A stretch of DNA of 64,000 nucleotides. It comes from Candidatus Giovannonibacteria bacterium RIFOXYD1_FULL_48_21. Its GTDB lineage: Bacteria > Patescibacteriota > Minisyncoccia > JACPKW01 > UBA11713. The stretch covers positions 67,067 to 131,066 of the forward strand of contig MFIU01000004.1 of NCBI GenBank assembly GCA_001778985.1, written 5' to 3'. The notes beneath the pieces were generated by a model. That model saw nothing but the letters and a program-made list of their open reading frames with translations, ran no database searches and had not been told where the DNA came from. Both the position numbers and the translations under genes were made by a program. Positions 1-49,854 of this stretch are shown piece by piece (the first letter of the stretch is position 1; each line of letters starts with the position of its first letter).

Positions 1-244
1 GCTGCGATAAAGCGCTTGCGGCGGCAGACTTTTCGGCCGCAGATGAATACGGGTTTCTCAAAACATTTGAAGCTCTGCTGGCCGCTTTTTTACCTGTTGT
101 TTTAGGATGTGCCATTGAATTACTTTTAAACTAATAAAATAGCGGTTACGACTATTCCGCAATTCAAGTTTATCGCATGCCGCCATAGATAGGCTGTGTA
201 TAACTGCTCGGGTTTTGCTCGGTTGAATATGATATACTGACTAT

Positions 245-1699
245 ATGCTTACCCCTCGTCTAAAACAAATAAAGGATTACGTTGCCCATACTCTATCTAA
301 AAAAGGCATGGCGCCAACTGAACGTGAGATTGCTCGCCGGTTTAAGATTTCTCCATCTACTGCTCATGAGCATATAGAAATGTTGCAAGAAAGAGGATAT
401 CTAGAAAAAATCCAAAAGCGTGCGCGGGGTATTAGAATCTTAAAATCACCATCAACCCTTATACGCATCCCACTTCTGGGAACTATTGCTGCTGGGGAGC
501 CAATTCATGTATTTGAGGAACAAAAGGAAACAATTGCGGTACCGCAAAATAAGGTTCCGCGCCAAGGCGAAGTATATGCCTTACAAGTAATCGGGAATAG
601 CATGCTTGATGAAAATATCAAAGATGGAGATACTATTTTAATCAAAAAACAAAGTGTGGCCGAGAACGGGGAAAAAGTGGTCGCGCTTCTCAACGGCAAC
701 GAGGCAACGCTCAAAACTTTTTATAAAGAAAAAGGTCAAATAAGATTACAGCCGGCAAATAAGAATTATCAGCCAATTATAGTAAAGAGAGGTCAAGATT
801 TTTCTCTACAAGGAATTTTGTTTGATGTAATAAAAACTAGTGAAACAATCCAGCCAACACAAACTTTTGTTTTGCCCCCTGAAAAAGATTTTCAAGAAAG
901 AGGCAATGTTTCTGATTATCTAAATAAGGTTTATAACGGCGATATAATGCATGTTTTGAAAGATTTACCGGACAATAGCGTTAATATGATTTTTGGAGAT
1001 CCTGATTATAATGTCGGCATTAAATACGGAAGCAATAATTATACAAAAAATTTTGATGACTATATAAACTGGTATATAGAACTTACCAAAGAATCAATGC
1101 GCGTTCTCAAAAATGACGGTAATCTTTTTGTGATGAATTATCCGCAACAGAACGCCCACCTCCGTGTTAAGTATTTGGATTTACAATTCCCGCATATTAA
1201 CGAATATGTTTGGGTCTATAATACGAATGTAGGACATACTCCAAAAAGATTTACAACGGCACACCGAAGCATACTACATGTCAGAAAAAATGCTGATAAT
1301 AAATTTTTCAAAGACGAGGTTGCGCTCCCATACAAAAATCTGGCAGACAGAAGAATCCGTCAGAATTTGGCAAATGGATCAAAGGGGAGAATGCCTTATT
1401 CTTGGTTTGAGTTTAATCTTGTAAAAAATGTGAGCAAGGAAAAAACTTATCACGCCTGCCAAATTCCGCAAAAATTAACAGAAATGTTAATTAAAGCGGC
1501 GACCAAGCCAAAAGATATAGTTTTAGTTCTTTTTGGTGGTAGTGGCGCGGAAATAGATGTCTGCAGAAGCTTAAATCGTCAATTTATTTCCGCCGAGATA
1601 GACAAAAAATACTGTGACATTATAAACACTCGCTTGGCAAATGGCTTTATCGCACCAGAGCATAAACTATTTAGAGGACGAAAAAGAATTGAAAATTAA
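245..1699 (+). CDS. LexA-like repressor (winged HTH + S24 peptidase) fused to a beta-class N6/N4 DNA methyltransferase (PF01555-type)
   Basis: The N-terminal ~200 aa align along their whole length with LexA: an HTH domain, the linker '...IAAGEP...' holding the Ala-Gly autocleavage site, the 'GNSM' catalytic Ser motif and 'EATLKTF' holding the catalytic Lys. The C-terminal half carries methyltransferase motif IV-like 'GDPDYNV', then 'HACQIPQKL...DIVLVLFGGSGAEI...FISAEIDKKYCDIINTRL', which matches the PF01555 AdoMet-binding region (F-G-G-S-G). It is a single uninterrupted ORF. Confidence 0.8.
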   Translation: MLTPRLKQIKDYVAHTLSKKGMAPTEREIARRFKISPSTAHEHIEMLQERGYLEKIQKRARGIRILKSPSTLIRIPLLGTIAAGEPIHVFEEQKETIAVPQNKVPRQGEVYALQVIGNSMLDENIKDGDTILIKKQSVAENGEKVVALLNGNEATLKTFYKEKGQIRLQPANKNYQPIIVKRGQDFSLQGILFDVIKTSETIQPTQTFVLPPEKDFQERGNVSDYLNKVYNGDIMHVLKDLPDNSVNMIFGDPDYNVGIKYGSNNYTKNFDDYINWYIELTKESMRVLKNDGNLFVMNYPQQNAHLRVKYLDLQFPHINEYVWVYNTNVGHTPKRFTTAHRSILHVRKNADNKFFKDEVALPYKNLADRRIRQNLANGSKGRMPYSWFEFNLVKNVSKEKTYHACQIPQKLTEMLIKAATKPKDIVLVLFGGSGAEIDVCRSLNRQFISAEIDKKYCDIINTRLANGFIAPEHKLFRGRKRIEN

Positions 1700-2520
1700 C
1701 GAAAGTCAGGCGACAAAAGAGGATAAGTTTCAAAAAGACCCTTGATTTTTGGAAGTGGGGCCATGCCGGAGGGCGGTCGAGCAAACGCACCGGCAAATTT
1801 TGCGAGAGATCGGCGGTTTAATAAAACTGCTACCAGATGAGTGAAAGTTAGCAGGGTATTCACTCGTCCATAATCATGTTGCGCGTTTTCGTGTCCTAGT
1901 GTGTGCATTTTTACATCTTCATTAAGAGCTAAAACATCTAGGAAATATAAAAATACATCAACAGGAACGCCGCCAACTTCGGGAAGGCGTTTTTTAAGCA
2001 CGGCTAAAGATAATTTTGGCGGAATATACCTCCATTTATTTTCTTGATTTCGCTTATGGTCCAACATAAAAGCCATTCGGAATATAAGCATGCCCAAAAG
2101 TTCTAATCCAAACATATCCGCCCGCATAAGATGTTCAATTTGTTCGAATAATGCCCCAAAAGTTAAATCATTACCAACTTTTTTTCCTTTTGTCATTATA
2201 AAAGGGTTCATGTCGTTTTTATTATTCGTAGTTTCTCCTGTTATATAATGTTTCCGTTTGAAATCAGGGGCAGCTTCTTTCCCGGGTTTACCAACGGCAA
2301 TCACAAAATCGCCACTTTTATAAATTTCAGTCATCTTTCTTTTTTCTTGATTTTTACCTTTCGGGAACGCTATTGCTTCTTTCAACATTTCTGCGCGGCG
2401 AGATCTTGCGAATGGACTTAATTTAAGCCCCGCTGTAAGTGCTAACTCCTTATTGATAGCCGAAATATCTTTTTCAGATATGCCCAGCTTCAAATAAAAT
2501 TTCTTTGTTATTGTTTCCAT
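1696..2520 (-). CDS. putative type II restriction endonuclease (PD-(D/E)xK-like), convergent partner of the methyltransferase
   Basis: Its stop codon overlaps the methyltransferase stop by 4 nt (TTAA), tail to tail. It has a candidate catalytic motif 'PVD...x14...EDVK' (PD...DxK) and no similarity I recognise to a housekeeping family. The start is taken at the internal Met ('METITKKF', ATG at 2520), because the longer ORF would run into the tRNA-Ser gene. Confidence 0.35.
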   Translation of the reverse strand: METITKKFYLKLGISEKDISAINKELALTAGLKLSPFARSRRAEMLKEAIAFPKGKNQEKRKMTEIYKSGDFVIAVGKPGKEAAPDFKRKHYITGETTNNKNDMNPFIMTKGKKVGNDLTFGALFEQIEHLMRADMFGLELLGMLIFRMAFMLDHKRNQENKWRYIPPKLSLAVLKKRLPEVGGVPVDVFLYFLDVLALNEDVKMHTLGHENAQHDYGRVNTLLTFTHLVAVLLNRRSLAKFAGAFARPPSGMAPLPKIKGLFETYPLLSPDFR

Positions 2521-2582
2521 ATTATTTGATAAGATACGAGATGTCTTTTTTATAAACCTCTGCAAATTTGCTTTTTCCCAAC

Positions 2583-2671
2583 TGGCGGAGAGGGCGAGAT
2601 TCGAACTCGCGATGGGATTTCTCCCATACTTGCTTTCCAAGCAAGCGCACTAGGCCACTATGCGACCTCTC
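2583..2671 (-). tRNA. tRNA-Ser(GGA), 3' CCA encoded
   Basis: Cloverleaf read by hand: acceptor GGAGAGG/CCTCTCC, anticodon stem CTTGC/GCAAG with loop TTGGAAA, a long variable arm, T-arm GCGAG-TTCGAAT-CTCGC, discriminator G and CCA. Confidence 0.85.
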
Positions 2672-2684
2672 CAATTCTGAAACA

Positions 2685-3356
2685 TTATCTCGAAACGTTC
2701 TTCCTGGCAATAACGGCGACGCGCGAGAGATTCGCCGGAAAATCATCAGCCGTAAGCCGGAGGGTCCGAATATCGCTAAGCCCTGAATCGCGGCAAATCC
2801 GGCGAATTTCGTCCAAAGAATGGGGCTTAAATTTATAGACCATCGCCAAGACCGCGCCAGCCGGATTTCGCCTCACTCCCAAATTCAAAAACATTCCGCC
2901 GGGGCGAAGGAGCGAGGCTAAGCGCGGGATAACGACTTCGACTGGAACGTGCTCCAAGGCGCCGCTGGTAATCACGGCGTCGAAAAAATCAGGCGGGACG
3001 TTGAACGCCTGTTTGGTGTAAAAATCGTCCAAAATTTCCGGCGTATTCAAATCGTTTTGGAAAAGACGCACGTTATCAATTCCCTCTTCTTGAGTGAGAA
3101 GCGCCATCTCGCGGAGCATGCGGCGGTCAATGTCAGAAGCATAAATTTCAATATCTGGAAAACGCTTGGCGAGATAAAGCGCCACGAGTCCAGTGCCGGC
3201 GCCGGCGTCGAGAACCTTGCTTCCTTTTGAAAAAGAAAAATCAACGCGCTCGAGAAAATTTTCCACGCCCCGCTTAAAACCCGTGAGGGTAAGAAAAGCG
3301 TCGTAGACGTTCGCGAGCGAACCATATTGAGAACGAGGAGCGGAGTTTTGGCTCAT
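2685..3356 (-). CDS. class I SAM-dependent methyltransferase
   Basis: Motif I 'VLDAGAGTGLVALYLAKRF' and the spacing of the downstream acidic residue are typical of Rossmann-fold methyltransferases. Confidence 0.7.
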   Translation of the reverse strand: MSQNSAPRSQYGSLANVYDAFLTLTGFKRGVENFLERVDFSFSKGSKVLDAGAGTGLVALYLAKRFPDIEIYASDIDRRMLREMALLTQEEGIDNVRLFQNDLNTPEILDDFYTKQAFNVPPDFFDAVITSGALEHVPVEVVIPRLASLLRPGGMFLNLGVRRNPAGAVLAMVYKFKPHSLDEIRRICRDSGLSDIRTLRLTADDFPANLSRVAVIARKNVSR

Positions 3357-4252
3357 AGCGACATCTCACGCAATCTTTTTACGCGCTCCTTTATCGGCGG
3401 GTGGGTCATAAAAAGTTTCGCGAACCAGCCGACGGTGTTTTTCTTTCCCTGATACGGGTCGTCGAGCCACAAATGGGCTGTGGCGTGATTGGCTTGGCGC
3501 ATCGGAGTATTGTCATGCGCCAGCTTTTCCAAAGCCGAGGCCAGGCCGTCGGGATATCGCGTCAGCAACACCCCGGAAGCGTCAGCCAGAAACTCCCGCT
3601 TTCTCGAAACTGCCAACTGAATTAAAATCCCCGCGATCGGAGCCAAAATCGCGAGAACGATTCCAACCAGAAGAAAAATAGCTGAAGCCTGCCCCTCCCG
3701 GTCATTCCTGCCTCTCCACCAGATTGAGCGCAAAAATATGTCCGAGAGAAGCTGAACCACTCCCACCAGCACCACGACCACGGTCGAAACCAGCATATCG
3801 CGGTTTCCGATGTGGCTCATCTCGTGCGCCAAAACACCCTCGAGCTCGGCGCGGTTCATAATTTTCAAAATGCCGCTAGTAACCGCCACAACCGCGTGCT
3901 CGGGGTCGCGGCCGGTGGCAAAGGCGTTCGGCTGGGGAGAATCAACCAGATAAATTTTTGGCTTGGGAATGCCGGCAGTAATCGCGAGGTTTTCTACAAT
4001 ATTATGAACTTCAGGCGCGGCTGAATTCGGAAGCGGCCGCGCTCCGGTAGTGGCGATGACGATTTTATCCGAGTACCAATACGAGGCGAGGCTCATCAAA
4101 ATGCTCAAACCGAAGGCAAAAATAAAAATAACGGGATTGCCGTAAATTCTTGAGAAAGCCCAGCCCAGAGTGGTTACGATAATCAAAAAAATCGCAATCA
4201 AAAGCCAAGTCTTGCGGATGTTTGAATCCTTATGAGTCCAGATTGTCGCCAT
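3353..4252 (-). CDS. htpX: membrane zinc metalloprotease HtpX (M48 family)
   Basis: N-terminal transmembrane helices, the 'HEMSHIGNRD' HExxH zinc-binding motif, and an arrangement typical of HtpX. Confidence 0.8.
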   Translation of the reverse strand: MATIWTHKDSNIRKTWLLIAIFLIIVTTLGWAFSRIYGNPVIFIFAFGLSILMSLASYWYSDKIVIATTGARPLPNSAAPEVHNIVENLAITAGIPKPKIYLVDSPQPNAFATGRDPEHAVVAVTSGILKIMNRAELEGVLAHEMSHIGNRDMLVSTVVVVLVGVVQLLSDIFLRSIWWRGRNDREGQASAIFLLVGIVLAILAPIAGILIQLAVSRKREFLADASGVLLTRYPDGLASALEKLAHDNTPMRQANHATAHLWLDDPYQGKKNTVGWFAKLFMTHPPIKERVKRLREMSL

Positions 4253-4254
4253 AC

Positions 4255-4815
4255 TTAAAACGAAACTTTGACTGGTTCGCGCTCGGCCGGGGTTTCGTCG
4301 AGGTCGAAAAATTCTTCTTTCTTGAAGCCGAAAGCTCCGGCCACGAGGTTCGAAGGAAAGATTTCGATTTTATTGTTCAGTTCCAGCACATTGGAGTTGA
4401 AAAAACGCCGCGCGGCCTGAATTTTGTTTTCGGTGTCAGAGAGTTCCCGCTGAAGTTCGAGAAAATTCGTATTGGCTTTAAGCTCCGGATAAGCCTCGGC
4501 AATAGCAAAAATGCTTTTGAGCGCTCCGGTCAGCATATTCTCTTTAACCGCCTGCTCATGAGCTGTTCCTCCGCCTTTCAAAGCCTCGGCGCGAGCTTTC
4601 GTAACGTTTTCAAAAGCGGATTGCTCGTGCTTGGCGTAGCCTTTCACGGTCTGAACCAGGTTAGGAATCAAATCATATCTTCGCTTCAATTGAACCTCAA
4701 TGTCTGACCAGGCTTCTTTCGCGCGGTTTTTCAGCGTAATCAGCCGGTTATACGCCAAAATCAGCCAAAGAATAACTACCGCCACCACTCCTAAAATAAT
4801 CCAAAGAGTTGTCAT
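4255..4815 (-). CDS. lemA: LemA family protein
   Basis: N-terminal TM helix followed by the 'AYNRLITLKNRAKEAWSDIEVQLKRRYDLIPNLV' LemA signature. It lies adjacent to htpX, as is common. Confidence 0.75.
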   Translation of the reverse strand: MTTLWIILGVVAVVILWLILAYNRLITLKNRAKEAWSDIEVQLKRRYDLIPNLVQTVKGYAKHEQSAFENVTKARAEALKGGGTAHEQAVKENMLTGALKSIFAIAEAYPELKANTNFLELQRELSDTENKIQAARRFFNSNVLELNNKIEIFPSNLVAGAFGFKKEEFFDLDETPAEREPVKVSF

Positions 4816-4841
4816 CTATTTCATTATACTACAAATCGGAT

Positions 4842-5408
4842 TCAAGCGTAAGTCGGAGGTTTTTCTTGAGCGCCTCTTTGGTGCGCGATGAGGCGCGCCA
4901 GGGCGTATAAAGCGCTCGAAAGCCGGTTCAAATATTTTCGCGCGTTCTCACTAACCGCTGCGGGATTTTTTTCGGCATAGTTAAGCAGAGCGCGCTCGGC
5001 GCGGCGCGCGAGAGCCCGCGCGAAATCGCACCAAGCGCCGAGTTCCACCTCGCCCGCCACCCTAAACTCGGCGACGGGCGGAATCTCTTTTTCAATCGCC
5101 CTGATAAGCGCCTCTAGTTTGCGAACCGCAAATTCCCCCAGATGTTTATCCGCGCCGGCCAATTGGGCCTGCACGATAAAAAGCGCCTCTTGAAACTCGC
5201 GGAAAATTCCTGCCGCCGAAATCACTTTGCCCTCGAGATTGAAAGCGACATCTTTGCTCCGGCTGCGGCATAGGCCCAAGAGAGAATTCAGCTCGTCCAT
5301 CGTTCCCAAAGCTTCAAAAACAGGGTTAGTTTTCGAAAGCCGCTCTCCAGGTTTGGAAGAGAAGAGATTGGTTTCTCCTTTATCTCCCTTCCCGGTGTAG
5401 AGCATCAA
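4842..5408 (-). CDS. pduO: PduO-type ATP:cob(I)alamin adenosyltransferase
   Basis: The N-terminal 'YTGKGDKGETNL' matches the PduO/MMAB 'YTRTGDKGET' signature. The gene sits immediately downstream of a B12-dependent ribonucleotide reductase. Confidence 0.8.
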   Translation of the reverse strand: MMLYTGKGDKGETNLFSSKPGERLSKTNPVFEALGTMDELNSLLGLCRSRSKDVAFNLEGKVISAAGIFREFQEALFIVQAQLAGADKHLGEFAVRKLEALIRAIEKEIPPVAEFRVAGEVELGAWCDFARALARRAERALLNYAEKNPAAVSENARKYLNRLSSALYALARLIAHQRGAQEKPPTYA

Positions 5409-7699
5409 GCCGCGATTTCAATCTCGCACACTCCGGCCACGCAGGCGAGCTCCTGCTTAACGTCGGATTCGTCCTCTTTTTCATAGGTGACTATCTTGGA
5501 AAAATCCAGGTGCGCGACTTTCCGGCTAAGCGCTTCATAGGTTTTTTCGTCAATCGCTTCGTACGGAGCGAGTTGGTAGACATAGTTCGTCCGCGGCAAA
5601 AAGGAAAGTCCGCCGACCAAATCCCAATTTTCGTACACCCAGTTGGCGACGCTAATCCATTCATCGTCTCCGACCGAAATGGTCACGGAAGGATTGTGTT
5701 CGGTGTAATGTTTCTTGACCATTTTCCAGTGCTCCAGCTGTTCGAGCGCGCTCAAGTCGTCGCGGAAGATTCCGCCTTCCGGAGCTTTGACCGGAAATTC
5801 CAGCACATATGTATTCGCGCCGTCTTTCGGCTGTCCCACCTCCGGATGATACGGTATCCCCTGGTCGCGGAGCATTTTGAACAAAGAGTCGGTCGCCGAG
5901 ATGCGCACCCGCCGGACATAGTATTGGGAATGGCGGGGATGCATGCCGGAAGCGGAATCAACCAGCTGGGAAACGGTGCCGGACGGCTTAACGCAGGTAA
6001 TCGTCGCTGAACGCCTGACCCCGAAACGCGTGGCGTATTCTTCGTTCGTCCGGAGCGCCTCGTTTTTCATTTTTTCGAGCATTTCCGGCGTCCGGACGGC
6101 CGGCGAATCCCACTGGCCGGTGATGGAAACGCCCAAGAGCCGGTCCTCTTCGCAATTTTTCTTCCATTCCGGAGAAAGATATTGAAAATCCGTAAGAGTG
6201 GACTGGTAGGTTCCAAGAATAGTGGCGAGCCGCGTCTTTCGCAAAAGCGTTTCTTCGTTGTCTTCCGCCCGGGCGATGATTTCCGTGAGGTTGCAGAACT
6301 GTTTCGGCTTCAAAATAATCTCGCCGCACGGATTCGTTCCCCATTGGATATCTTCATCTTTTACCTTTTCCCAGCGACGAGGCGGCATCGTGTATTGAAG
6401 ATTTTCGCGGTTAAAAATTCCCCGCTCCCCGGAACCGCTTTTGGCCAGCGCCAGCCATTCTTCCATAAATTCTTCGGTCGCGGGCTTTTGGTTGTAGACT
6501 GTGGAATTGTTCGCCAATGACAGCTGGGTGTCGGTGAGATAAAACTGCCCTTTTTTGGCGTCCCTCATTTCAACATCGTCAAGGTCGGAAAGCGAAATAA
6601 GGGCGCTCCGCCTTACGCCGCCGGCGACGACGCATTCGCCGATTTTGCAGATGATGTCGTGCGCGGCGCGGTTGGAAAGCCGCCGGCCTTGATATTTTAA
6701 AATCCGGGCGCGCGTAAATTCCAAAAGCTGGCGCAAAGGTTCGGGTCCGGAACTTTTCCCGCCCATGGTCTTAAGCCTGGCGCCCGCGGGCCGGAGCTTG
6801 GAAAAATCGAACTTGACGTCGTTTCCGTCGTACCAGGTCTGCATTCCGAAAGTCAAGGCGTCGGCCCAGCCCTCGCGGCTGTCCTCAACGACATAATTCA
6901 GAAGCTCTCTGCCGCCCTGCCTTTTGATTTGCGGCAAAGCTTGGATGTTTTGACTTTCCACCGAGAACCCGACCCCTGCCCCGCACATGAGAATATAGAG
7001 AATTTCCGCGAAATCTTGAATGGTTCTGGGCGCAGTGTAAGAACAATTGTAGGCGCAGACGTTAGTTTTTCGCGCCGCCTTGCCCGCGAACTGCATGAGC
7101 CGCATGGAAGGCATCACTTCTTGTTTTAAAATCGCCTCCCGGAGTTCTTCGTATTCCGCCTCCGAGAGCCGGTCCGCCAGGTTCTCTTTCATGAAGTTAA
7201 GGTAACGCCCGACGGTTTCGATCCACGTTTCCCGCCGGCCTTCTTCTTCGATCCAGCGCGCGTAAGAACGGTAGAAAACAAATTCCGAGAGAGGGTTTCT
7301 GAAATATTTTTTGCTTTCGCTAACCAGCTGACGCACATGCTCCGGAACCGCGCCGCGTTCCCGGCGGATTTCAGCCCGCTTTTCGCGGTAAAGAATGTAG
7401 GCCTTGGCCGTCTTCGCGAACCCTTGATAAATAAGTTCTTCTTCCGCCAAATCCTGCACCATCTCGACATGCGGCAGGAAGTCGCCGTTGCGGCTGACTT
7501 TTTTGAGCTTCAAAAGATCTCTATAGACGAGCTCTGAAATTTTATCGGCTTCAGCCTCGCCTGCTTCGCCGGTCGCGTAAAACGCCCGCGCCACCGCCTG
7601 CGTAATTTTTTTAATGTTGAAAGGCGCAATCTGGCCGTCGCGTTTGCGGATTTGGATTAGGGATGGAACCATGATTGCTTTTTTCAGTTCTGGGGGCAT
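5405..7699 (-). CDS. nrdJ: class II (adenosylcobalamin-dependent) ribonucleotide reductase with N-terminal ATP-cone
   Basis: ATP-cone 'IRKRDGQIAPFNIKKI', the ribonucleotide reductase (RNR) active-site 'NPCGEI' and the C-terminal thiol pair. No NrdB or NrdG partner is present and the adjacent pduO supports B12 dependence. Confidence 0.85.
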   Translation of the reverse strand: MPPELKKAIMVPSLIQIRKRDGQIAPFNIKKITQAVARAFYATGEAGEAEADKISELVYRDLLKLKKVSRNGDFLPHVEMVQDLAEEELIYQGFAKTAKAYILYREKRAEIRRERGAVPEHVRQLVSESKKYFRNPLSEFVFYRSYARWIEEEGRRETWIETVGRYLNFMKENLADRLSEAEYEELREAILKQEVMPSMRLMQFAGKAARKTNVCAYNCSYTAPRTIQDFAEILYILMCGAGVGFSVESQNIQALPQIKRQGGRELLNYVVEDSREGWADALTFGMQTWYDGNDVKFDFSKLRPAGARLKTMGGKSSGPEPLRQLLEFTRARILKYQGRRLSNRAAHDIICKIGECVVAGGVRRSALISLSDLDDVEMRDAKKGQFYLTDTQLSLANNSTVYNQKPATEEFMEEWLALAKSGSGERGIFNRENLQYTMPPRRWEKVKDEDIQWGTNPCGEIILKPKQFCNLTEIIARAEDNEETLLRKTRLATILGTYQSTLTDFQYLSPEWKKNCEEDRLLGVSITGQWDSPAVRTPEMLEKMKNEALRTNEEYATRFGVRRSATITCVKPSGTVSQLVDSASGMHPRHSQYYVRRVRISATDSLFKMLRDQGIPYHPEVGQPKDGANTYVLEFPVKAPEGGIFRDDLSALEQLEHWKMVKKHYTEHNPSVTISVGDDEWISVANWVYENWDLVGGLSFLPRTNYVYQLAPYEAIDEKTYEALSRKVAHLDFSKIVTYEKEDESDVKQELACVAGVCEIEIAA

Positions 7700-8211
7700 A
7701 TTTCAAGAGCGGCCTTAGGAGTGGTCACTGATTTTGGATTCGCGGCCACCCAGCGGTAGAGCGCCGGGCTTATGAGCGCGGCAAAAATCGTATTGCCTAA
7801 AAGGTGCCGGGCGGTAAAAGGAATCTGCCCGATAAGCGCCGCCATAAACGGCTGGCCGAAAAAAATAGGGCCGATAGTGAGCCCGGTTAAAGCGTCGTAT
7901 AGTATCGTTCCTCCCACGGCAAAAAGGGAATAATTGAGGGCGGAACTCTCGCGATTCTTGAAAAATAAAGCGGCCAGAATCCCCAGAAGGCCGTAAGCAA
8001 AAGCCGTAACCCATGTCCAGACCCCGATTCCCGAGGTAAAAAGGTCGTAGATGACCATATTAGCGAACGCGAAACAAAAACCCGCCGCCGCCCCGTAGCG
8101 CTTGCTAAAAGGCATCTGAGCCGTAAGCACCGGTTCGATATTGGCGGGACGAAAAGGAATCAAACGCACCAAAAAAACAAGCAGCCATCCAGCAAAAAAC
8201 TTCTTGACCAT
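7684..8211 (-). CDS. small polytopic membrane protein, candidate ECF-type S-component (CbrT-like cobalamin transporter component)
   Basis: 175 aa with about 5-6 hydrophobic helices. It overlaps the nrdJ start by 16 nt. The gene context (membrane protein, then nrdJ, then pduO) resembles the known cbrT-nrdJ-pduO B12 clusters. The family assignment is an inference from context. Confidence 0.4.
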   Translation of the reverse strand: MVKKFFAGWLLVFLVRLIPFRPANIEPVLTAQMPFSKRYGAAAGFCFAFANMVIYDLFTSGIGVWTWVTAFAYGLLGILAALFFKNRESSALNYSLFAVGGTILYDALTGLTIGPIFFGQPFMAALIGQIPFTARHLLGNTIFAALISPALYRWVAANPKSVTTPKAALEICPQN

Positions 8212-8278
8212 GGTAATGATATTTTACCCGTAGAATTTTCCGCCAACAATGGCTTTCCTGTGCAAAACCGCCTCGGGT

Positions 8279-9922
8279 TCAGTAATCCTCGTGGGGCATT
8301 GGCCCCGCCGCGGCGGGATTCTCTTTTTTTGGAAGTTCGGCCACGATAACTTCCGTGGTCAAGAGCATGGCCGAAGCTGAAGCCGCGTTTTGGAGAGCCG
8401 AGCGGGTAACTTTTTTTGGGTCCACGATGCCGGCTTGTATCAAATCCTCATATTTTCCGGTGGCGGCGTTGTAGCCTAAATTATCTTTCAGTTTTAACAC
8501 CTCTTCCGTCACCACCGCGCCCGAAACCCCGGCGTTTTCCGCGATTTGCCAGAGGGGTTTCATAATGGCTAGCCTCAGAATTTCAATTCCGGTAACCTCG
8601 TCGCGATCCTGGCTCCTGGAATCTGTTTTCACGAGCATTTCATCCAATACTTTCGCCGCCCGGACCAGCGCCACGCCTCCGCCCGGCACGATTCCTTCTT
8701 CAATCGCGGCTTTGGTGGCCGAAATCGCGTCCTCAATCCGATGCTGTTTTTCTTTCTGCTCCACTTCGGTGGCCGCCCCAACCCTAATCACCGCCACGCC
8801 TCCGGAAAGTTTCGCCAATCTTTCTTCCAATTTCTCGCGGTCATAGTCCGAGTCGGTTTTTTCAATCAAAGCCTTGAGCTGTTTCATCCGTTTTTCAATG
8901 TCGCCCTTCTCACCTTGGCCGCCTACCAGCGTCGTGTTCTCTTTGGCGGCGATAACTTTCTTGGCGTGCCCCAACATGGCCAGTTCGGCTTTCTCGAGTT
9001 TCAATCCGGCTTTTTCCGAAATAACTTTGCCGCCGGTAACCACCGCGACATCTTCCAGCATTTCTTCCCGGCGGTCGCCGTAGCCCGGAGCTTTGACCGC
9101 CAAGACATTAAAGGTTCCGCGAATTTTGTTCACGACGAAAGTGGCCAAGGCTTCGCCCTCAACGTCCTCGGCGATAATCACAAGTTCCTTTTTGCCTTTC
9201 TGCGCCACCTTCTCCAAAAGCGGCAAAATTTCCTGGATGGAAGAAATTTTCTTGTCCGTGATTAAAATATCCACGTTTTCATAAACCGCTTCCATGCGTT
9301 CGGCGTTCGTAACCATATAGTGCGAGATGTAGCCGCGGTCAAACTGCAGACCTTCCACAATTTCGTAGGAAAGGCCGAAAGTCTGCGACTCTTCCACTGT
9401 AACCACGCCGTCCTTGCCGACTTTATGAATCACTTCGGCAATTCTCTCGCCGATCTCCGCGTCTTTGGCGGAGATGGTGGCCACCTGCGCGATGTCTTCC
9501 TTTTTTTCGCCCACCGGAATCGCGAGTTTTGCCAGATACTCCACCACGGCTTGGCTGGCTTTCTCAATACCGCGCTTCAAACCCATCGGGTTCGCTCCGG
9601 CGGCGATATTCTTAAGGCCTTCGGTGACGATGGCTTGAGCCAGCAAAGAGGCCGTAGTCGTTCCGTCGCCGGCCACATCGTTGGTCTTTGAAGCAACTTC
9701 TTTCACAATCTCCGCGCCCAAATTTTCGAGCTTATTCGGGAGTTCAATTTCCTTGGCAATCGTAACCCCGTCGTTGGTAATCGTGGGCGCGCCGAAACTT
9801 TTCTCCAGAACCACGTTCCGGCCCTTAGGCCCGAGGGTTATTTTCACGGCGTTCGCCACCTGGTCCACCCCGCGCTTCAAGGCTTCGCGCGCTTCGATGT
9901 TAAAAACAATTTGTTTTGGCAT
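8279..9922 (-). CDS. groL: chaperonin GroEL
   Basis: Full-length match including '[15 protein letters not shown]' and the C-terminal Gly/Met-rich tail. Uses a TGA stop. Confidence 0.95.
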
Positions 9923-9923
9923 A

Positions 9924-10229
9924 TTATTCTTCGATTATTGCTAAAATATCTTCTTCTTTGGCGATAAGATATTCTTTCTCGTCAATTTTTATCTCAGTCG
10001 GGCCGTATTTGGAGAAAAGAACTTTTTGACCTTTCTGGACCGCGAGCGGGACAAGTTTTCCTTCGTCAGTCCTCCGGCCTTCGCCCACTTCCAGCACCCG
10101 ACCCTGCTCCGGCCGCTCTTTCTCGGCCGTATCCGGAATCACGATGCCGGATTTGGTTTTGCCTTCTTTTTCTTCGGGGCTCAAAGGTTCGATTAAAACC
10201 CTGTCCCCCAACGGCTTTAGCTTTAACAT
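9924..10229 (-). CDS. groS: co-chaperonin GroES
   Basis: 101 aa, '[11 protein letters not shown]...[11 protein letters not shown]', located immediately upstream of groEL. Confidence 0.95.
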
Positions 10230-29399: not shown

Positions 29400-29705
29400 A
29401 ATTAATTTGCTCTTATTTTCTAATAATCACTAATAATAGCTAACGACTTTTTTAATTTGTCAATAGAAACATTTTCATTCTTTCGGCCGTTAATATTTAG
29501 TTATCAAAGTTCTAACAAAGCGACAAACCCCGTATCTTCTACGGTATTTGCTTAATTGTGTCTTCCCTTATTATAGGGATTCATCTTAAAGGCAACAAGT
29601 AGATTAGTAAAGCCTTTGTGGATAACTAGAAAGTCCTTAGAAATAAGGTCTTTTTAGTATTTAAATACACTTGTTTGCCTTGAGGTGAAAAACTATAATT
29701 GAACC

Positions 29706-30719: not shown

Positions 30720-30880
30720 GCTGGGTTGTTCAATATCGGCAAGAGGTGTGGACAACTTTTCTGGAAATATGCTATAGTGTATTTGGCGCTTGGAGGGCTT
30801 TGGCCCTATCACGGTCAATGTTTTCCAAACCGTAACCAAGTGCCACCAAAAAGTACCGCATAAGCGGCACTTTTTGTTTC

Positions 30881-49321: not shown

Positions 49322-49343
49322 AACCCCGCATTCTGCGGGGTTG
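49322..49343. terminator. hairpin AACCCCGCA-ttct-GCGGGGTT shared by the HTH gene (+) and rnpB (-)
   Basis: A perfect 9 bp GC-rich stem. Confidence 0.55.
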
Positions 49344-49347
49344 ATTT

Positions 49348-49753
49348 AGATACGCCTATAAGCCGAATTCTGTCCTCCCGCTGAAAGCGGGATGTATGGT
49401 CATTTATCTCAGCCTCGCCTTACGGCGGGGCCTGAAGCGGCACTTCCCGCCTTCCTTTGAAAGTTTCAATGGTTGGCGGGACACGGCCTTGCACCAGGCA
49501 GGGTTTTCAACTCCGGCGTCTTGCGAGGTCGGAGCGTGCGCTCTTACCGCACGATTTCACCTTTGCTCTCTTGCCCTTTAGGGGAAAGAGGGCCGTATAT
49601 TTTCTGTTGCACTATCCGTCCCTGAAAGATTCCTCTTTCAAGGCGTGGGTGTTACCCACTGCCCACTTCTCATTTTTCAATGAGGGTGTTCGGACTTTCC
49701 TCCCCGCCTACGATTATTTTTAAATGTTGGCGGGGTGACCATCCGGCGTATCT
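49348..49753 (-). ncRNA. rnpB: RNase P RNA, bacterial type A
   Basis: Minus-strand matches to the conserved blocks GGCGGGGAGGAAAGTCCGAACACC, AGTGCAACAGAAAAT...CGGCC, AGGTGAAATCGTGCGGTAAGAGCGCACGC and GGACAGAATTCGGCTTATAGG (P4). P1 forms by pairing AGATACGCC (5') with GGCGTATCT (3'). Confidence 0.9.
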
Positions 49754-49854
49754 TGCAGTAATTATAGTCGAGAAATAATTTTTGTCAACTATTTATTTTA
49801 TTTTAAAAAATCCGGCGGATACCCAAGGGCATCCGCCGTTTAGAGAAACATTCA

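What the first reader, a model, noticed from the sequence alone, without database searches (positions are those of the whole stretch)
245..2520. Complete LexA repressor fused in-frame to a DNA methyltransferase, tail-to-tail with a putative restriction endonuclease
The 484 aa ORF begins as a complete LexA. It has the HTH, the Ala-Gly autocleavage site in '...LLGTIAAGEP...', the 'GNSM' catalytic Ser and the 'EATLK' catalytic Lys. Without a break it then continues into a beta-class PF01555 N6A/N4C methyltransferase ('DPDY' motif IV followed by 'FGGSGAEI...' motif I). Its stop overlaps by 4 nt (TTAA) the stop of a convergent 275 aa ORF with a plausible PD...DxK nuclease motif. In ordinary R-M systems control uses small C proteins or HTH extensions. 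Fusion to an intact, presumably RecA-cleavable LexA would tie methyltransferase dosage, or operator occupancy of the R-M locus, to DNA damage. It might also derepress restriction during SOS. I do not know of a described example. The motif-IV variant DPDY instead of DPPY is also unusual.
Basis: partly seen in the sequence, partly recalled or inferred. Interest (0 to 1): 0.78.

Follow-up and report, generated by a model that had tools for sequence, protein, structure and literature searches.

The report
LexA-fused methyltransferase restriction-modification cassette
A small mobile restriction-modification gene cassette of ultra-small (CPR/Patescibacteria) bacteria makes its protective DNA methyltransferase as one protein with a complete LexA DNA-damage repressor, which appears to switch off its own promoter and could link self-protection to DNA damage; this arrangement is widespread in metagenomes but I found no description of it.

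Summary
ORF 245..1699 (484 aa) is a full LexA fused by a roughly 20-residue disordered linker to a beta-class N6/N4 DNA methyltransferase. LexA has its wHTH, Ala83-Gly84, Ser119 and Lys157, and scores above NCBI's lexA equivalog cut-off. The junction is not an artefact. The identical protein is on at least 24 independently assembled contigs, and over 120 protein clusters across Patescibacteria share the architecture.

In 68 distinct fusions the cleavage site and the Ser/Lys dyad are invariant. Every promoter carries an 11-bp-period direct repeat (window 206-222, GCTCGG-N5-GCTCGG). Its sequence covaries 68/68 with a recognition-helix residue, so the LexA domain most likely autoregulates the methyltransferase gene.

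The convergent 274-aa ORF has no detectable nuclease fold, so the PD-(D/E)xK idea is unsupported. It behaves like a restriction enzyme by association: it is always paired with this methyltransferase, and distant relatives sit beside C5 methyltransferases.

Complete cassettes also carry a C-protein gene upstream of R. In the window only a 3' remnant survives, next to tRNA-Ser.

RecA-dependent cleavage and SOS coupling are inferred, not shown. This is a new variant of the known "regulatory methyltransferase" theme.

The parts
195..205 (+). TGTGTATAACT: one-mismatch copy of the TGTGGATAACT box (reverse complement of the DnaA-box consensus TTATCCACA). It is the left-most element conserved among cassettes and marks the left boundary of the low-GC insert. 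Its binding partner is unknown.
206..222 (+). Direct-repeat operator GCTCGG-N5-GCTCGG (11-bp period), the inferred binding site of the LexA wHTH dimer in the M promoter.
   Evidence: The exact repeat occurs once in the 64 kb window. A homologous repeat is in all 68 fusion promoters and covaries with the recognition helix. The same GCTCGG repeat occurs with the same PST[AV]HEH helix in L062 and L116.
233..238 (+). TATACT, the candidate -10 hexamer, 6 nt before the ATG. This would give a leaderless or near-leaderless mRNA (inferred).
   Evidence: Read from the sequence. TATACT/TATAAT sits at the same place in relatives. The simple sigma-70 scan did not call it.
245..1699 (+). LexA-methyltransferase fusion gene, 484 aa.
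248..430 (+). LexA winged-HTH DNA-binding domain (aa 2-62). The recognition helix is S36-PSTAHEH-43, and E42 aligns with E. coli LexA Glu45.
491..496 (+). Ala83-Gly84, the LexA-type autocleavage site in LLGTIA|AGEP.
   Evidence: Aligned with E. coli Ala84-Gly85. Ala and Gly are invariant in 68/68 fusions (A3 invariants).
470..820 (+). Peptidase_S24 domain (aa 76-192) with catalytic Ser119 (nt 599-601) and Lys157 (nt 713-715).
839..895 (+). Inter-domain linker (aa 199-217), predicted disordered.
   Evidence: AF2 model of the fusion: pLDDT 30-44 in this stretch, with folded modules on both sides.
980..1627 (+). Beta-class N6/N4 DNA methyltransferase domain (aa 246-461). Motif IV DPDY is at nt 998-1009 and motif I FGGSG at nt 1532-1546.
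1696..2520 (-). Convergent 274-aa gene, the putative restriction endonuclease. It belongs to an unannotated family with no recognisable fold.
2522..2572 (-). 3' remnant (…KFAEVYKKDISYLIK*) of the C-protein-like HTH_3 gene that precedes R in complete cassettes.
2583..2672 (-). tRNA-Ser(GGA). Its 3' end abuts the truncated right end of the cassette, and it is on the same strand as R, so it is a possible source of R transcription (inferred).

Best explanation
Window 193-2582 is a horizontally acquired, low-GC Type II restriction-modification cassette typical of Patescibacteria. Its methyltransferase is made as a single polypeptide with a complete LexA repressor.

Shown: the domains, the intact cleavage site and catalytic dyad, the conservation of the fusion, and a promoter direct repeat whose two copies change in concert and covary with the recognition helix.

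Inferred: the protein dimerises through its S24 domain. Its two wHTH domains bind the direct repeat (GCTCGG-N5-GCTCGG) that lies at the core promoter. The gene therefore represses itself and holds methyltransferase at a set level, as SsoII/Ecl18kI-type regulatory methyltransferases do.

Further inferred: when the chromosome is cut (self-restriction, imbalance after transfer, other damage), RecA-ssDNA filaments stimulate cleavage at Ala83-Gly84. The DNA-binding domain is detached, the promoter is derepressed, and S24-methyltransferase is released. This gives a burst of protective methylation, a Type II analogue of 'restriction alleviation'.

The convergent 274-aa gene is the cognate endonuclease. 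In complete cassettes it is driven by a separate C-protein circuit, which the window copy has lost. There R probably depends on read-through from tRNA-Ser.

The confidence of 0.55 is for the whole chain. Taken separately, I put the R-M cassette with an autoregulatory LexA-MTase at about 0.85 and the damage-triggered cleavage with a protective outcome at about 0.45.
For: Architecture. Not an artefact: at least 24 contigs; 120 clusters; about 100 loci.

Selection on the protease: Ala-Gly 68/68, Ser 68/68, Lys 68/68.

Operator: an 11-bp-period 6-mer pair is in every promoter, between the box and the -10 or overlapping the spacer. The two copies are mostly identical within a locus but differ between loci. 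Helix residue F/Y goes with ...TA in 50/50 and E/Q with ...GG in 18/18. PST[AV]HEH goes with GCTCGG in 3/3. L021 has a second, inverted copy downstream of the -10. LexA binding to direct repeats has precedent, including Patescibacteria (PMC7739468, citing Sanchez-Osuna 2017).

No regulon: near matches to the window operator (up to 3 mismatches) are no more frequent than chance in the 64 kb (65 against 62.6 expected), and the exact repeat occurs only at 206-222.

R-M identity: a convergent partner with overlapping stops is present in 57 of 57 loci with enough sequence. Distant relatives of the 274-aa family lie beside C5 DNA methylases, with or without Vsr, in 4 of 4 places examined. A C-protein gene with C-box-like palindromes precedes R in at least 28 of 49 loci. 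The cassette sits at different chromosomal sites, often among defence genes. Its GC is about 37% against about 52% for the host.

Functional linkage independent of fusion: L018 has a separate LexA-like gene, then a stand-alone MTase (85% identical), then R. L021 has LexA fused to a different SPPY MTase with an HNH partner.

Logic of the SOS link: R-M imbalance and post-segregational killing induce SOS (PMC3874152).
Against: No experiment shows binding, cleavage or methylation.

Helix-operator covariation could partly reflect physical linkage, since the two lie about 150-250 bp apart, and shared ancestry. The GG/TA split may be few events.

No RecA gene was seen in the window, and RecA presence in this genome was not tested.

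Ser, Lys and Ala-Gly are also retained in S24 repressors that serve mainly as dimerisation modules.

The fate of the S24-MTase fragment after cleavage is unknown; in E. coli both LexA fragments are degraded.

The partner protein has no nuclease signature at all.

The window promoter lacks a recognisable -35.

The window copy lacks the C gene, so the state of R expression is uncertain.
Confidence: 0.55

Rival explanations
1. This is a plain autoregulatory methyltransferase. The LexA module supplies only DNA binding and dimerisation (an SsoII-like regulatory MTase), and it is not cleaved in response to DNA damage in vivo.
For: Regulatory MTases with N-terminal HTH domains are an established class (PMC12707154, sections 10-11; PMC3978073). 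The operator evidence needs only binding, not cleavage. RecA was not seen in the window.
Against: A small HTH would suffice for that role. Instead the whole S24 protease is kept, with the Ala-Gly site, Ser and Lys invariant in 68 of 68 diverged fusions, and in the unfused L018 repressor. The wHTH evolves fast (median 38% identity), while S24 stays at 75%.
Confidence: 0.25
2. This is a damage-triggered suicide or abortive switch. Cleavage exposes degradation signals, so the methyltransferase fragment is destroyed. Methylation lapses and the stable endonuclease kills the damaged or infected cell.
For: Recalled knowledge: in E. coli both LexA cleavage fragments are degraded by ClpXP/Lon. The new C-terminus here would be ...TIA-A, resembling LexA ...VAA (alignment). 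R-M systems can act as addiction or death modules (PMC3874152, PMC5737642). One distant relative of the partner protein is itself fused to an S24 domain (P0286).
Against: Cleavage simultaneously derepresses the M promoter, which works against loss of methyltransferase. There is no evidence on fragment stability. Only one S24-partner fusion cluster was found.
Confidence: 0.1
3. This is not an R-M system. The fusion is a solitary (epigenetic or repair-linked) methyltransferase, and the convergent 274-aa protein is not an endonuclease.
For: No nuclease fold or motif is detectable. Near-identical MTases pair with two unrelated partner families.
Against: The convergent pairing is strict, with overlapping stops. 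A C-protein gene with C-boxes lies upstream of both partner types, as in known C-R operons (PDB hits to C.BclI and C.AhdI). Distant relatives sit next to C5 MTases and Vsr. The L021 variant pairs with a recognisable HNH nuclease. Isospecific but unrelated endonucleases for one MTase type are common in R-M systems (general knowledge).
Confidence: 0.08
4. The fusion is the host's own SOS master regulator (its only LexA), which happens to have captured a methyltransferase. Its targets would then be a chromosomal SOS regulon.
For: It passes the lexA equivalog cut-off, and no second LexA is in the window or in 730 kb of related loci. An orphan box plus a TAGAAA-N5-TAGAAA repeat lies at 29617-29644.
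Against: The gene travels with R on a low-GC cassette found at unrelated chromosomal sites. The window-type operator has no further copies in 64 kb beyond chance. DNA-binding specificity differs between cassettes in related hosts. The orphan site at 29617 is of the TTTCTA type, not the window's GCTCGG type.
Confidence: 0.05
5. The fusion is an artefact: a frameshift or mis-assembly joining two genes.
For: None was found.
Against: The identical 484-aa protein is on at least 24 contigs from independent samples and assemblers. The fusion is conserved across 120 clusters down to 66% identity, and in a 36%-identical variant.
Confidence: 0.01

Closest known systems
Regulatory (dual-function) Type II methyltransferases: M.SsoII, M.Ecl18kI, M.EcoRII, M.MspI type
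   Same: A sequence-specific DNA-binding domain is fused to the N-terminus of the MTase through a flexible linker. It binds an operator in the system's own promoter region and autorepresses M (PMC12707154; PMC3978073). The same logic is inferred here from operator-helix covariation and the disordered linker.
   Different: Those enzymes are C5 MTases with a short (about 70 aa) HTH region and no protease. Their operator lies between divergent R and M promoters, so binding also stimulates R. Here the MTase is beta-class N6/N4, the regulator is a complete LexA (wHTH plus S24 autoprotease), the genes are convergent, and the operator is a direct repeat seen only at the M promoter.
LexA and LexA-like S24 repressors (LexA, lambda CI, SetR, UmuD)
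   Same: The full LexA domain set is present and scores above the lexA equivalog cut-off. It has Ala-Gly, Ser and Lys, and it aligns with E. coli LexA over residues 4-199. The direct-repeat operator has 11-bp spacing, like alphaproteobacterial GTTC-N7-GTTC (recalled) and, according to PMC7739468, Patescibacteria.
   Different: It carries a 270-aa enzyme on its C-terminus, so cleavage would release an enzyme rather than only inactivate a repressor. It is cassette-borne and apparently controls only itself. RecA dependence is untested.
C-protein controlled convergent R-M systems such as Esp1396I (also AhdI, BclI, PvuII)
   Same: Complete cassettes have a 73-aa HTH_3 gene directly upstream of R, forming a C-R operon convergent with M. 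Paired palindromes (AATCCCAtttTGGGATT plus TAGGATATAC) lie upstream. The protein gives PDB sequence hits to C.BclI and C.AhdI (PMC2691842).
   Different: M is controlled by its own fused LexA rather than by C. The window copy has lost the C gene except for a remnant.
Restriction alleviation of Type I systems after DNA damage (ClpXP degradation of HsdR)
   Same: Functional analogy only: a link between DNA damage and a shift of the R/M balance toward protection (general knowledge; inferred here).
   Different: The components and mechanism are entirely different, and nothing here has been demonstrated.

Membership tests
LexA (TIGR00498 / Pfam LexA_DNA_bind + Peptidase_S24) | N-terminal winged-HTH DNA-binding domain | tested here: met
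   PF01726 at aa 2-62, E 1.2e-12. Aligned to E. coli LexA from residue 4.
LexA (TIGR00498 / Pfam LexA_DNA_bind + Peptidase_S24) | Ala-Gly scissile bond and Ser/Lys catalytic dyad in an S24 domain | tested here: met
   A83-G84, S119 and K157 are in register with E. coli A84-G85, S119 and K156. They are invariant in 68 of 68 fusions.
LexA (TIGR00498 / Pfam LexA_DNA_bind + Peptidase_S24) | Whole-protein score above the curated equivalog cut-off | tested here: met
   172.4 bits against a cut-off of 110.95, over aa 2-198.
LexA (TIGR00498 / Pfam LexA_DNA_bind + Peptidase_S24) | RecA*-stimulated self-cleavage | not testable with these tools
   Needs biochemistry. No recA is in the 64 kb window.
LexA (TIGR00498 / Pfam LexA_DNA_bind + Peptidase_S24) | Controls a chromosomal SOS regulon through a shared operator | tested here: not met
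   The window-type repeat GCTCGG-N5-GCTCGG occurs once. Near matches (up to 3 mismatches) are no more frequent than in shuffles, 65 against 62.6. Only 64 kb could be scanned.
Beta-class N6A/N4C DNA methyltransferase (PF01555) | Profile match over the full domain, with motif IV (D/S-P-P-Y/F) N-terminal to motif I (F-x-G-x-G) | tested here: met
   PF01555 positions 1-220 of 221, E 2.3e-37. DPDY is at aa 252-255 and FGGSG at aa 430-434. The second Pro is replaced by Asp in 67 of 68 family members. PDB relatives are MboIIA, CcrM and RsrI.
Beta-class N6A/N4C DNA methyltransferase (PF01555) | Target base and recognition sequence | not testable with these tools
   Needs SMRT/ONT methylomes or in vitro assay. 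The leading Asp and the closer adenine-MTase hits favour m6A only weakly.
Type II restriction-modification system | MTase gene adjacent to a cognate endonuclease gene, conserved as a unit | tested here: met
   A convergent partner is in 57 of 57 loci with sequence: 31 of the 274-aa type, 25 of the 209-aa type, and 1 HNH. The flanks are unrelated between genomes.
Type II restriction-modification system | Partner protein is demonstrably a nuclease | tested here: inconclusive
   There is no family, motif or fold match. The only support is association with MTases of two classes and the C-R operon layout.
C-protein controlled R-M systems | Small HTH_3 controller gene upstream of R, with C-box palindromes | tested here: not met
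   In the window only a remnant of about 16 codons remains (2522-2572). The feature is met in at least 28 of 49 related loci (HTH_3 1.1e-14; C.BclI 5.9e-5; palindrome AATCCCAtttTGGGATT).
SsoII-type regulatory methyltransferases | N-terminal DNA-binding domain fused to the MTase, with its operator in the system's promoter | tested here: met
   Domain order, disordered linker, and operator-helix covariation 68/68. Binding itself was not tested.
SsoII-type regulatory methyltransferases | C5-cytosine MTase catalytic domain with a short HTH extension homologous to the SsoII N-terminal region | tested here: not met
   The catalytic domain is PF01555, not PF00145. The regulator is LexA plus S24.

The most novel reading that the evidence does not exclude
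This would be a restriction-modification system with a built-in DNA-damage sensor. RecA-stimulated self-cleavage of the LexA-methyltransferase both derepresses its promoter and releases active enzyme, so that self-inflicted chromosome breaks feed back to raise protection. The cassette also diversifies its wHTH/operator pairs for regulatory orthogonality, and it uses two endonuclease families of previously unseen fold.
Probability: 0.35. Interest if true: 0.82.

Novelty: new variant of a known kind. Interest (0 to 1): 0.68.

Why it matters
Control of the R/M balance is a life-or-death problem for every mobile R-M system. The known solutions are C proteins, promoter methylation, antisense RNA and short HTH extensions on the methyltransferase. 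A complete, apparently cleavable LexA fused to the methyltransferase would add a fifth: direct sensing of DNA damage, the very consequence of R/M imbalance.

The arrangement is abundant across Patescibacteria, organisms with very few regulators and no genetics. It comes with a simple, testable operator code: one helix residue paired with two operator bases. That makes it attractive both for understanding defence regulation in ultra-small bacteria and as a source of orthogonal, damage-responsive repressor/operator pairs.

The two partner families, one with a confident model and no structural neighbour, are candidates for new restriction-endonuclease folds.

Tried and rejected
(1) Assembly or frameshift artefact: rejected.

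(3) Homology between the 274-aa and 209-aa partner families: pairwise BLAST hinted at E about 3e-4, but hhalign gave 6.8% probability, so it was rejected.

(4) E. coli-type palindromic SOS box upstream (CTGT-N8-ACAG): the resemblance at 193-206 is not palindromic. It was replaced by the direct-repeat operator.

(5) TGTGGATAACT as a general host promoter element or insertion target: rejected, because only 2 exact copies lie outside cassette promoters in 730 kb. Its role stays unexplained.

(6) Flanking direct repeats or att sites for the insert: none beyond chance.

(7) Phage carriage: no fusion was found in IMG/VR, only 32-35% identical MTase domains.

(8) A second LexA or a RecA in the window or the loci: none.

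(9) The operator at the R or C promoters: not seen.

(10) Literature: no natural LexA-MTase fusion was found in 9 searches. The Patescibacteria LexA paper (Sanchez-Osuna 2017) is not held, so its motif could not be compared.

(11) Rfam over the window: only tRNAs and RNase P.
Full report
**1. Observation**

The 484-aa ORF at 245..1699 (+) exists as described. Its domain content is as follows.
- Pfam places LexA_DNA_bind at aa 2-62, Peptidase_S24 at 76-192 and N6_N4_Mtase at 246-461.
- The N-terminal part passes NCBI's curated lexA equivalog cut-off, with 172 bits against 111.
- It aligns with E. coli LexA residues 4-199. The scissile Ala-Gly (A83-G84 here), Ser119 and Lys157 are in register.
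- The C-terminal part matches a PADLOC Type II methyltransferase model at 394 bits. Its solved relatives are MboIIA, CcrM and RsrI.
- Motif IV (DPDY) precedes motif I (FGGSG), as in beta-class enzymes.

An AF2 model of the whole protein gives folded LexA and methyltransferase modules joined by a low-confidence stretch at aa 199-217. The convergent ORF is 1696..2520, 274 aa. The two stop codons share TTAA at 1696-1699.

**2. The fusion is real and common**

- The identical protein is encoded on at least 24 contigs from independent samples (ENA, JGI, NCBI), always in the same neighbourhood.
- The 120 best database clusters, 66-99% identical, all carry the three domains. Where named, they come from many Patescibacteria lineages, and sources label them 'LexA' or 'methylase'.
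- Scans of species-representative genomes and of metagenomes returned about 100 loci, which yielded 68 distinct full-length fusions.
- In these 68, Ala-Gly, Ser and Lys are invariant. DPDY is present in 67.
- No fusion was found on IMG/VR viral contigs.

**3. What the cassette is**

- The region from about 193 to 2582 has about 37% GC against about 52% in the flanks.
- Relatives sit at unrelated chromosomal positions, several among defence genes (DndB; OLD-TOPRIM/PDDEXK/PIF1).
- Similarity between cassettes starts exactly at an 11-mer, TGTGGATAACT (window 195-205, one mismatch).

A convergent partner with overlapping 3' ends is always present:

| Partner type | Loci |
|---|---|
| 274-aa family (as in the window) | 31 |
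| unrelated 209-aa family | 25 |
| recognisable HNH nuclease (L021) | 1 |

L021 is a distant variant in which LexA is fused to a different, SPPY-type methyltransferase. One locus, L018, has the same methyltransferase unfused. There it is preceded by a separate LexA-like S24 repressor gene.

- It is a 73-aa HTH_3 protein directly upstream of R (Pfam 1e-14).
- It gives PDB sequence hits to the controller proteins C.BclI and C.AhdI.
- C-box-like palindromes, AATCCCAtttTGGGATT plus TAGGATATAC, lie upstream of it.
- It is intact in at least 28 of 49 loci with enough sequence.

In the window only the last ~16 codons remain (2522-2572). They abut the 3' end of tRNA-Ser(GGA) at 2583. No terminator-like site lies between the tRNA and R, so R may be read through from the tRNA. 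This last point is inferred.

**4. The partner protein**

The proposed PD...DxK motif is therefore unsupported, and D71 is not even conserved. Invariant polar residues do exist (KPGKE 78-82, NNxND 99-103, D154-H155, E201-D202-x-K204, D216-Y-G-R219), but they define no known site.

Its restriction-enzyme role rests on context.
- It is strictly paired with the methyltransferase.
- It sits in a C-R operon layout.
- All four distant relatives whose context I could examine sit next to C5 DNA methylases, one with Vsr as well.

**5. How the LexA part most likely works**

Every fusion promoter contains two copies of a 6-mer spaced 11 bp apart. They lie between the box and the -10, or overlap the -35/-10 spacer. 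The two copies are mostly identical within a locus but differ between loci: TTTCTA, TTTCGG, GCTCGG, GTTCGG, TGTCGG, TTTAGG and GTTCTA.

The last two bases covary perfectly with the recognition-helix residue that aligns with E. coli LexA Glu45:

| Helix feature | Operator feature | Count |
|---|---|---|
| residue Phe or Tyr | repeat ends in TA | 50/50 |
| residue Glu or Gln | repeat ends in GG | 18/18 |
| helix P-S-T-[AV]-H-E-H | repeat GCTCGG | 3/3 |

L021 has a second, inverted pair downstream of its -10.

Two caveats apply. The helix codons and the operator are only about 200 bp apart, and the loci are related, so linkage contributes to the covariation. However, the concerted change of both half-sites while the spacer drifts is what a functional dimer site predicts.

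LexA proteins that read direct repeats are known, and Patescibacteria are cited among them (PMC7739468). The wHTH is the fastest-evolving part, with median identity to the window of 38%, against 75% for S24 and 88% for the methyltransferase. All helix classes occur with both partner types. This suggests modular exchange and selection for distinct specificities.

The window-type operator has no further copies in the 64 kb above chance. No second LexA or RecA is in the window.

I conclude, with fair confidence, that the protein represses its own promoter. DNA damage may trigger self-cleavage, derepression and release of S24-methyltransferase. That step is inferred from the invariant protease features and from the known induction of SOS by R-M imbalance (PMC3874152). 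It is not shown.

**6. Comparison with known systems**

- Closest in logic are the SsoII/Ecl18kI 'regulatory methyltransferases', which have a short N-terminal HTH on a C5 enzyme and autorepress (PMC12707154; PMC3978073).
- Closest in gene layout is Esp1396I, with M convergent to a C-R operon (PMC2691842).
- The difference is the regulator: a whole LexA with its autoprotease, on a beta-class enzyme, using a direct-repeat operator.
- A 2025 review of R-M biology does not mention LexA at all.
- A 2026 preprint on CPR methyltransferases mentions neither LexA nor fusions.
- Targeted searches found only artificial yeast LexA fusions.

I therefore class this as a new variant of a known kind. It is present in databases and apparently undescribed in the literature I could search.

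**7. Verdict**

The fusion, its completeness and its R-M context hold. The nuclease fold and the implied absence of a C protein do not. SOS coupling remains plausible but untested.
- Interest is 0.68.

Noticed in passing
window 195-205; also 29617-29627 (exact) and 30747-30757 (1 mismatch): TGTGGATAACT, the reverse complement of the DnaA-box consensus TTATCCACA, is the left-most conserved element of every cassette. It occurs in either orientation, centred about -36 to -54 from the inferred start. It is also kept upstream of the unfused LexA-like gene in L018 and in the L021 variant. Outside cassette promoters only two exact copies occur in 730 kb. One is at window 29617, and it is followed by TAGAAA-N5-TAGAAA, the reverse complement of a TTTCTA-type operator. 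What binds the box is unknown.
   Followed up: partly
window 2522-2572 (-) and 2583-2672 (-): A remnant of the C-protein gene (…KFAEVYKKDISYLIK*) is fused in frame to sequence antisense to nothing functional, and it abuts the 3' end of tRNA-Ser(GGA). A tRNA gene also sits directly upstream of R, in place of C, in L056, L100/L002 and L114. This suggests recurrent replacement of the C promoter by a tRNA gene, or tRNA-end targeting.
   Followed up: partly
L002, L003, L006, L008-L010, L015, L016, L019 and 16 metagenome loci: A second, unrelated convergent partner of 209 aa, also without any family or PDB match, replaces the 274-aa protein next to methyltransferases that are 78-96% identical. The switch point is at the 3' end of the MTase gene, where the C-terminal tails differ (…FRGRKRIEN against …GPRGKKK…SSAY).
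   Followed up: partly
L021 4001-6077: In a Jorgensenbacteria MAG, LexA is fused to a different methyltransferase (TSPPY, N4C-like, 28% identical). It is convergent with an HNH endonuclease and keeps the same box and a TTTCGG repeat, plus an inverted second repeat downstream of the -10.
   Followed up: partly
L018 3252-5611: This is the unfused version: a separate 236-aa LexA-like S24 repressor (GSANCGP, GNSL, TIKK), then a 283-aa stand-alone methyltransferase (85% identical), then the 274-aa-type partner.
   Followed up: partly
L033 268-1449 (protein P0286): A distant relative of the 274-aa partner carries a C-terminal Peptidase_S24 domain (Cys-Gly site, Ser and Lys present) and is followed by an RmuC gene. 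This is a second, independent link between S24 autoproteases and this protein family.
   Followed up: no
L031/L032, L034, L035, L036: Distant relatives of the 274-aa family lie next to C5 DNA methylases in every orientation. One is with Vsr, one is beside a BglII-type endonuclease gene, and one is beside a GmrSD_C gene. The family is therefore not restricted to Patescibacteria; it also occurs in Nanoarchaeota and Coriobacteriia.
   Followed up: partly
window 1-10000: The cassette has GC of about 33-42% against 48-58% in the flanking host genes (SAM methyltransferase, HtpX-like M48 peptidase, LemA, class II ribonucleotide reductase). This is consistent with recent horizontal acquisition.
   Followed up: yes
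window 49343-49754 (-): A bacterial RNase P RNA class A (189 bits) and four further tRNA genes. These are ordinary housekeeping features.
   Followed up: no
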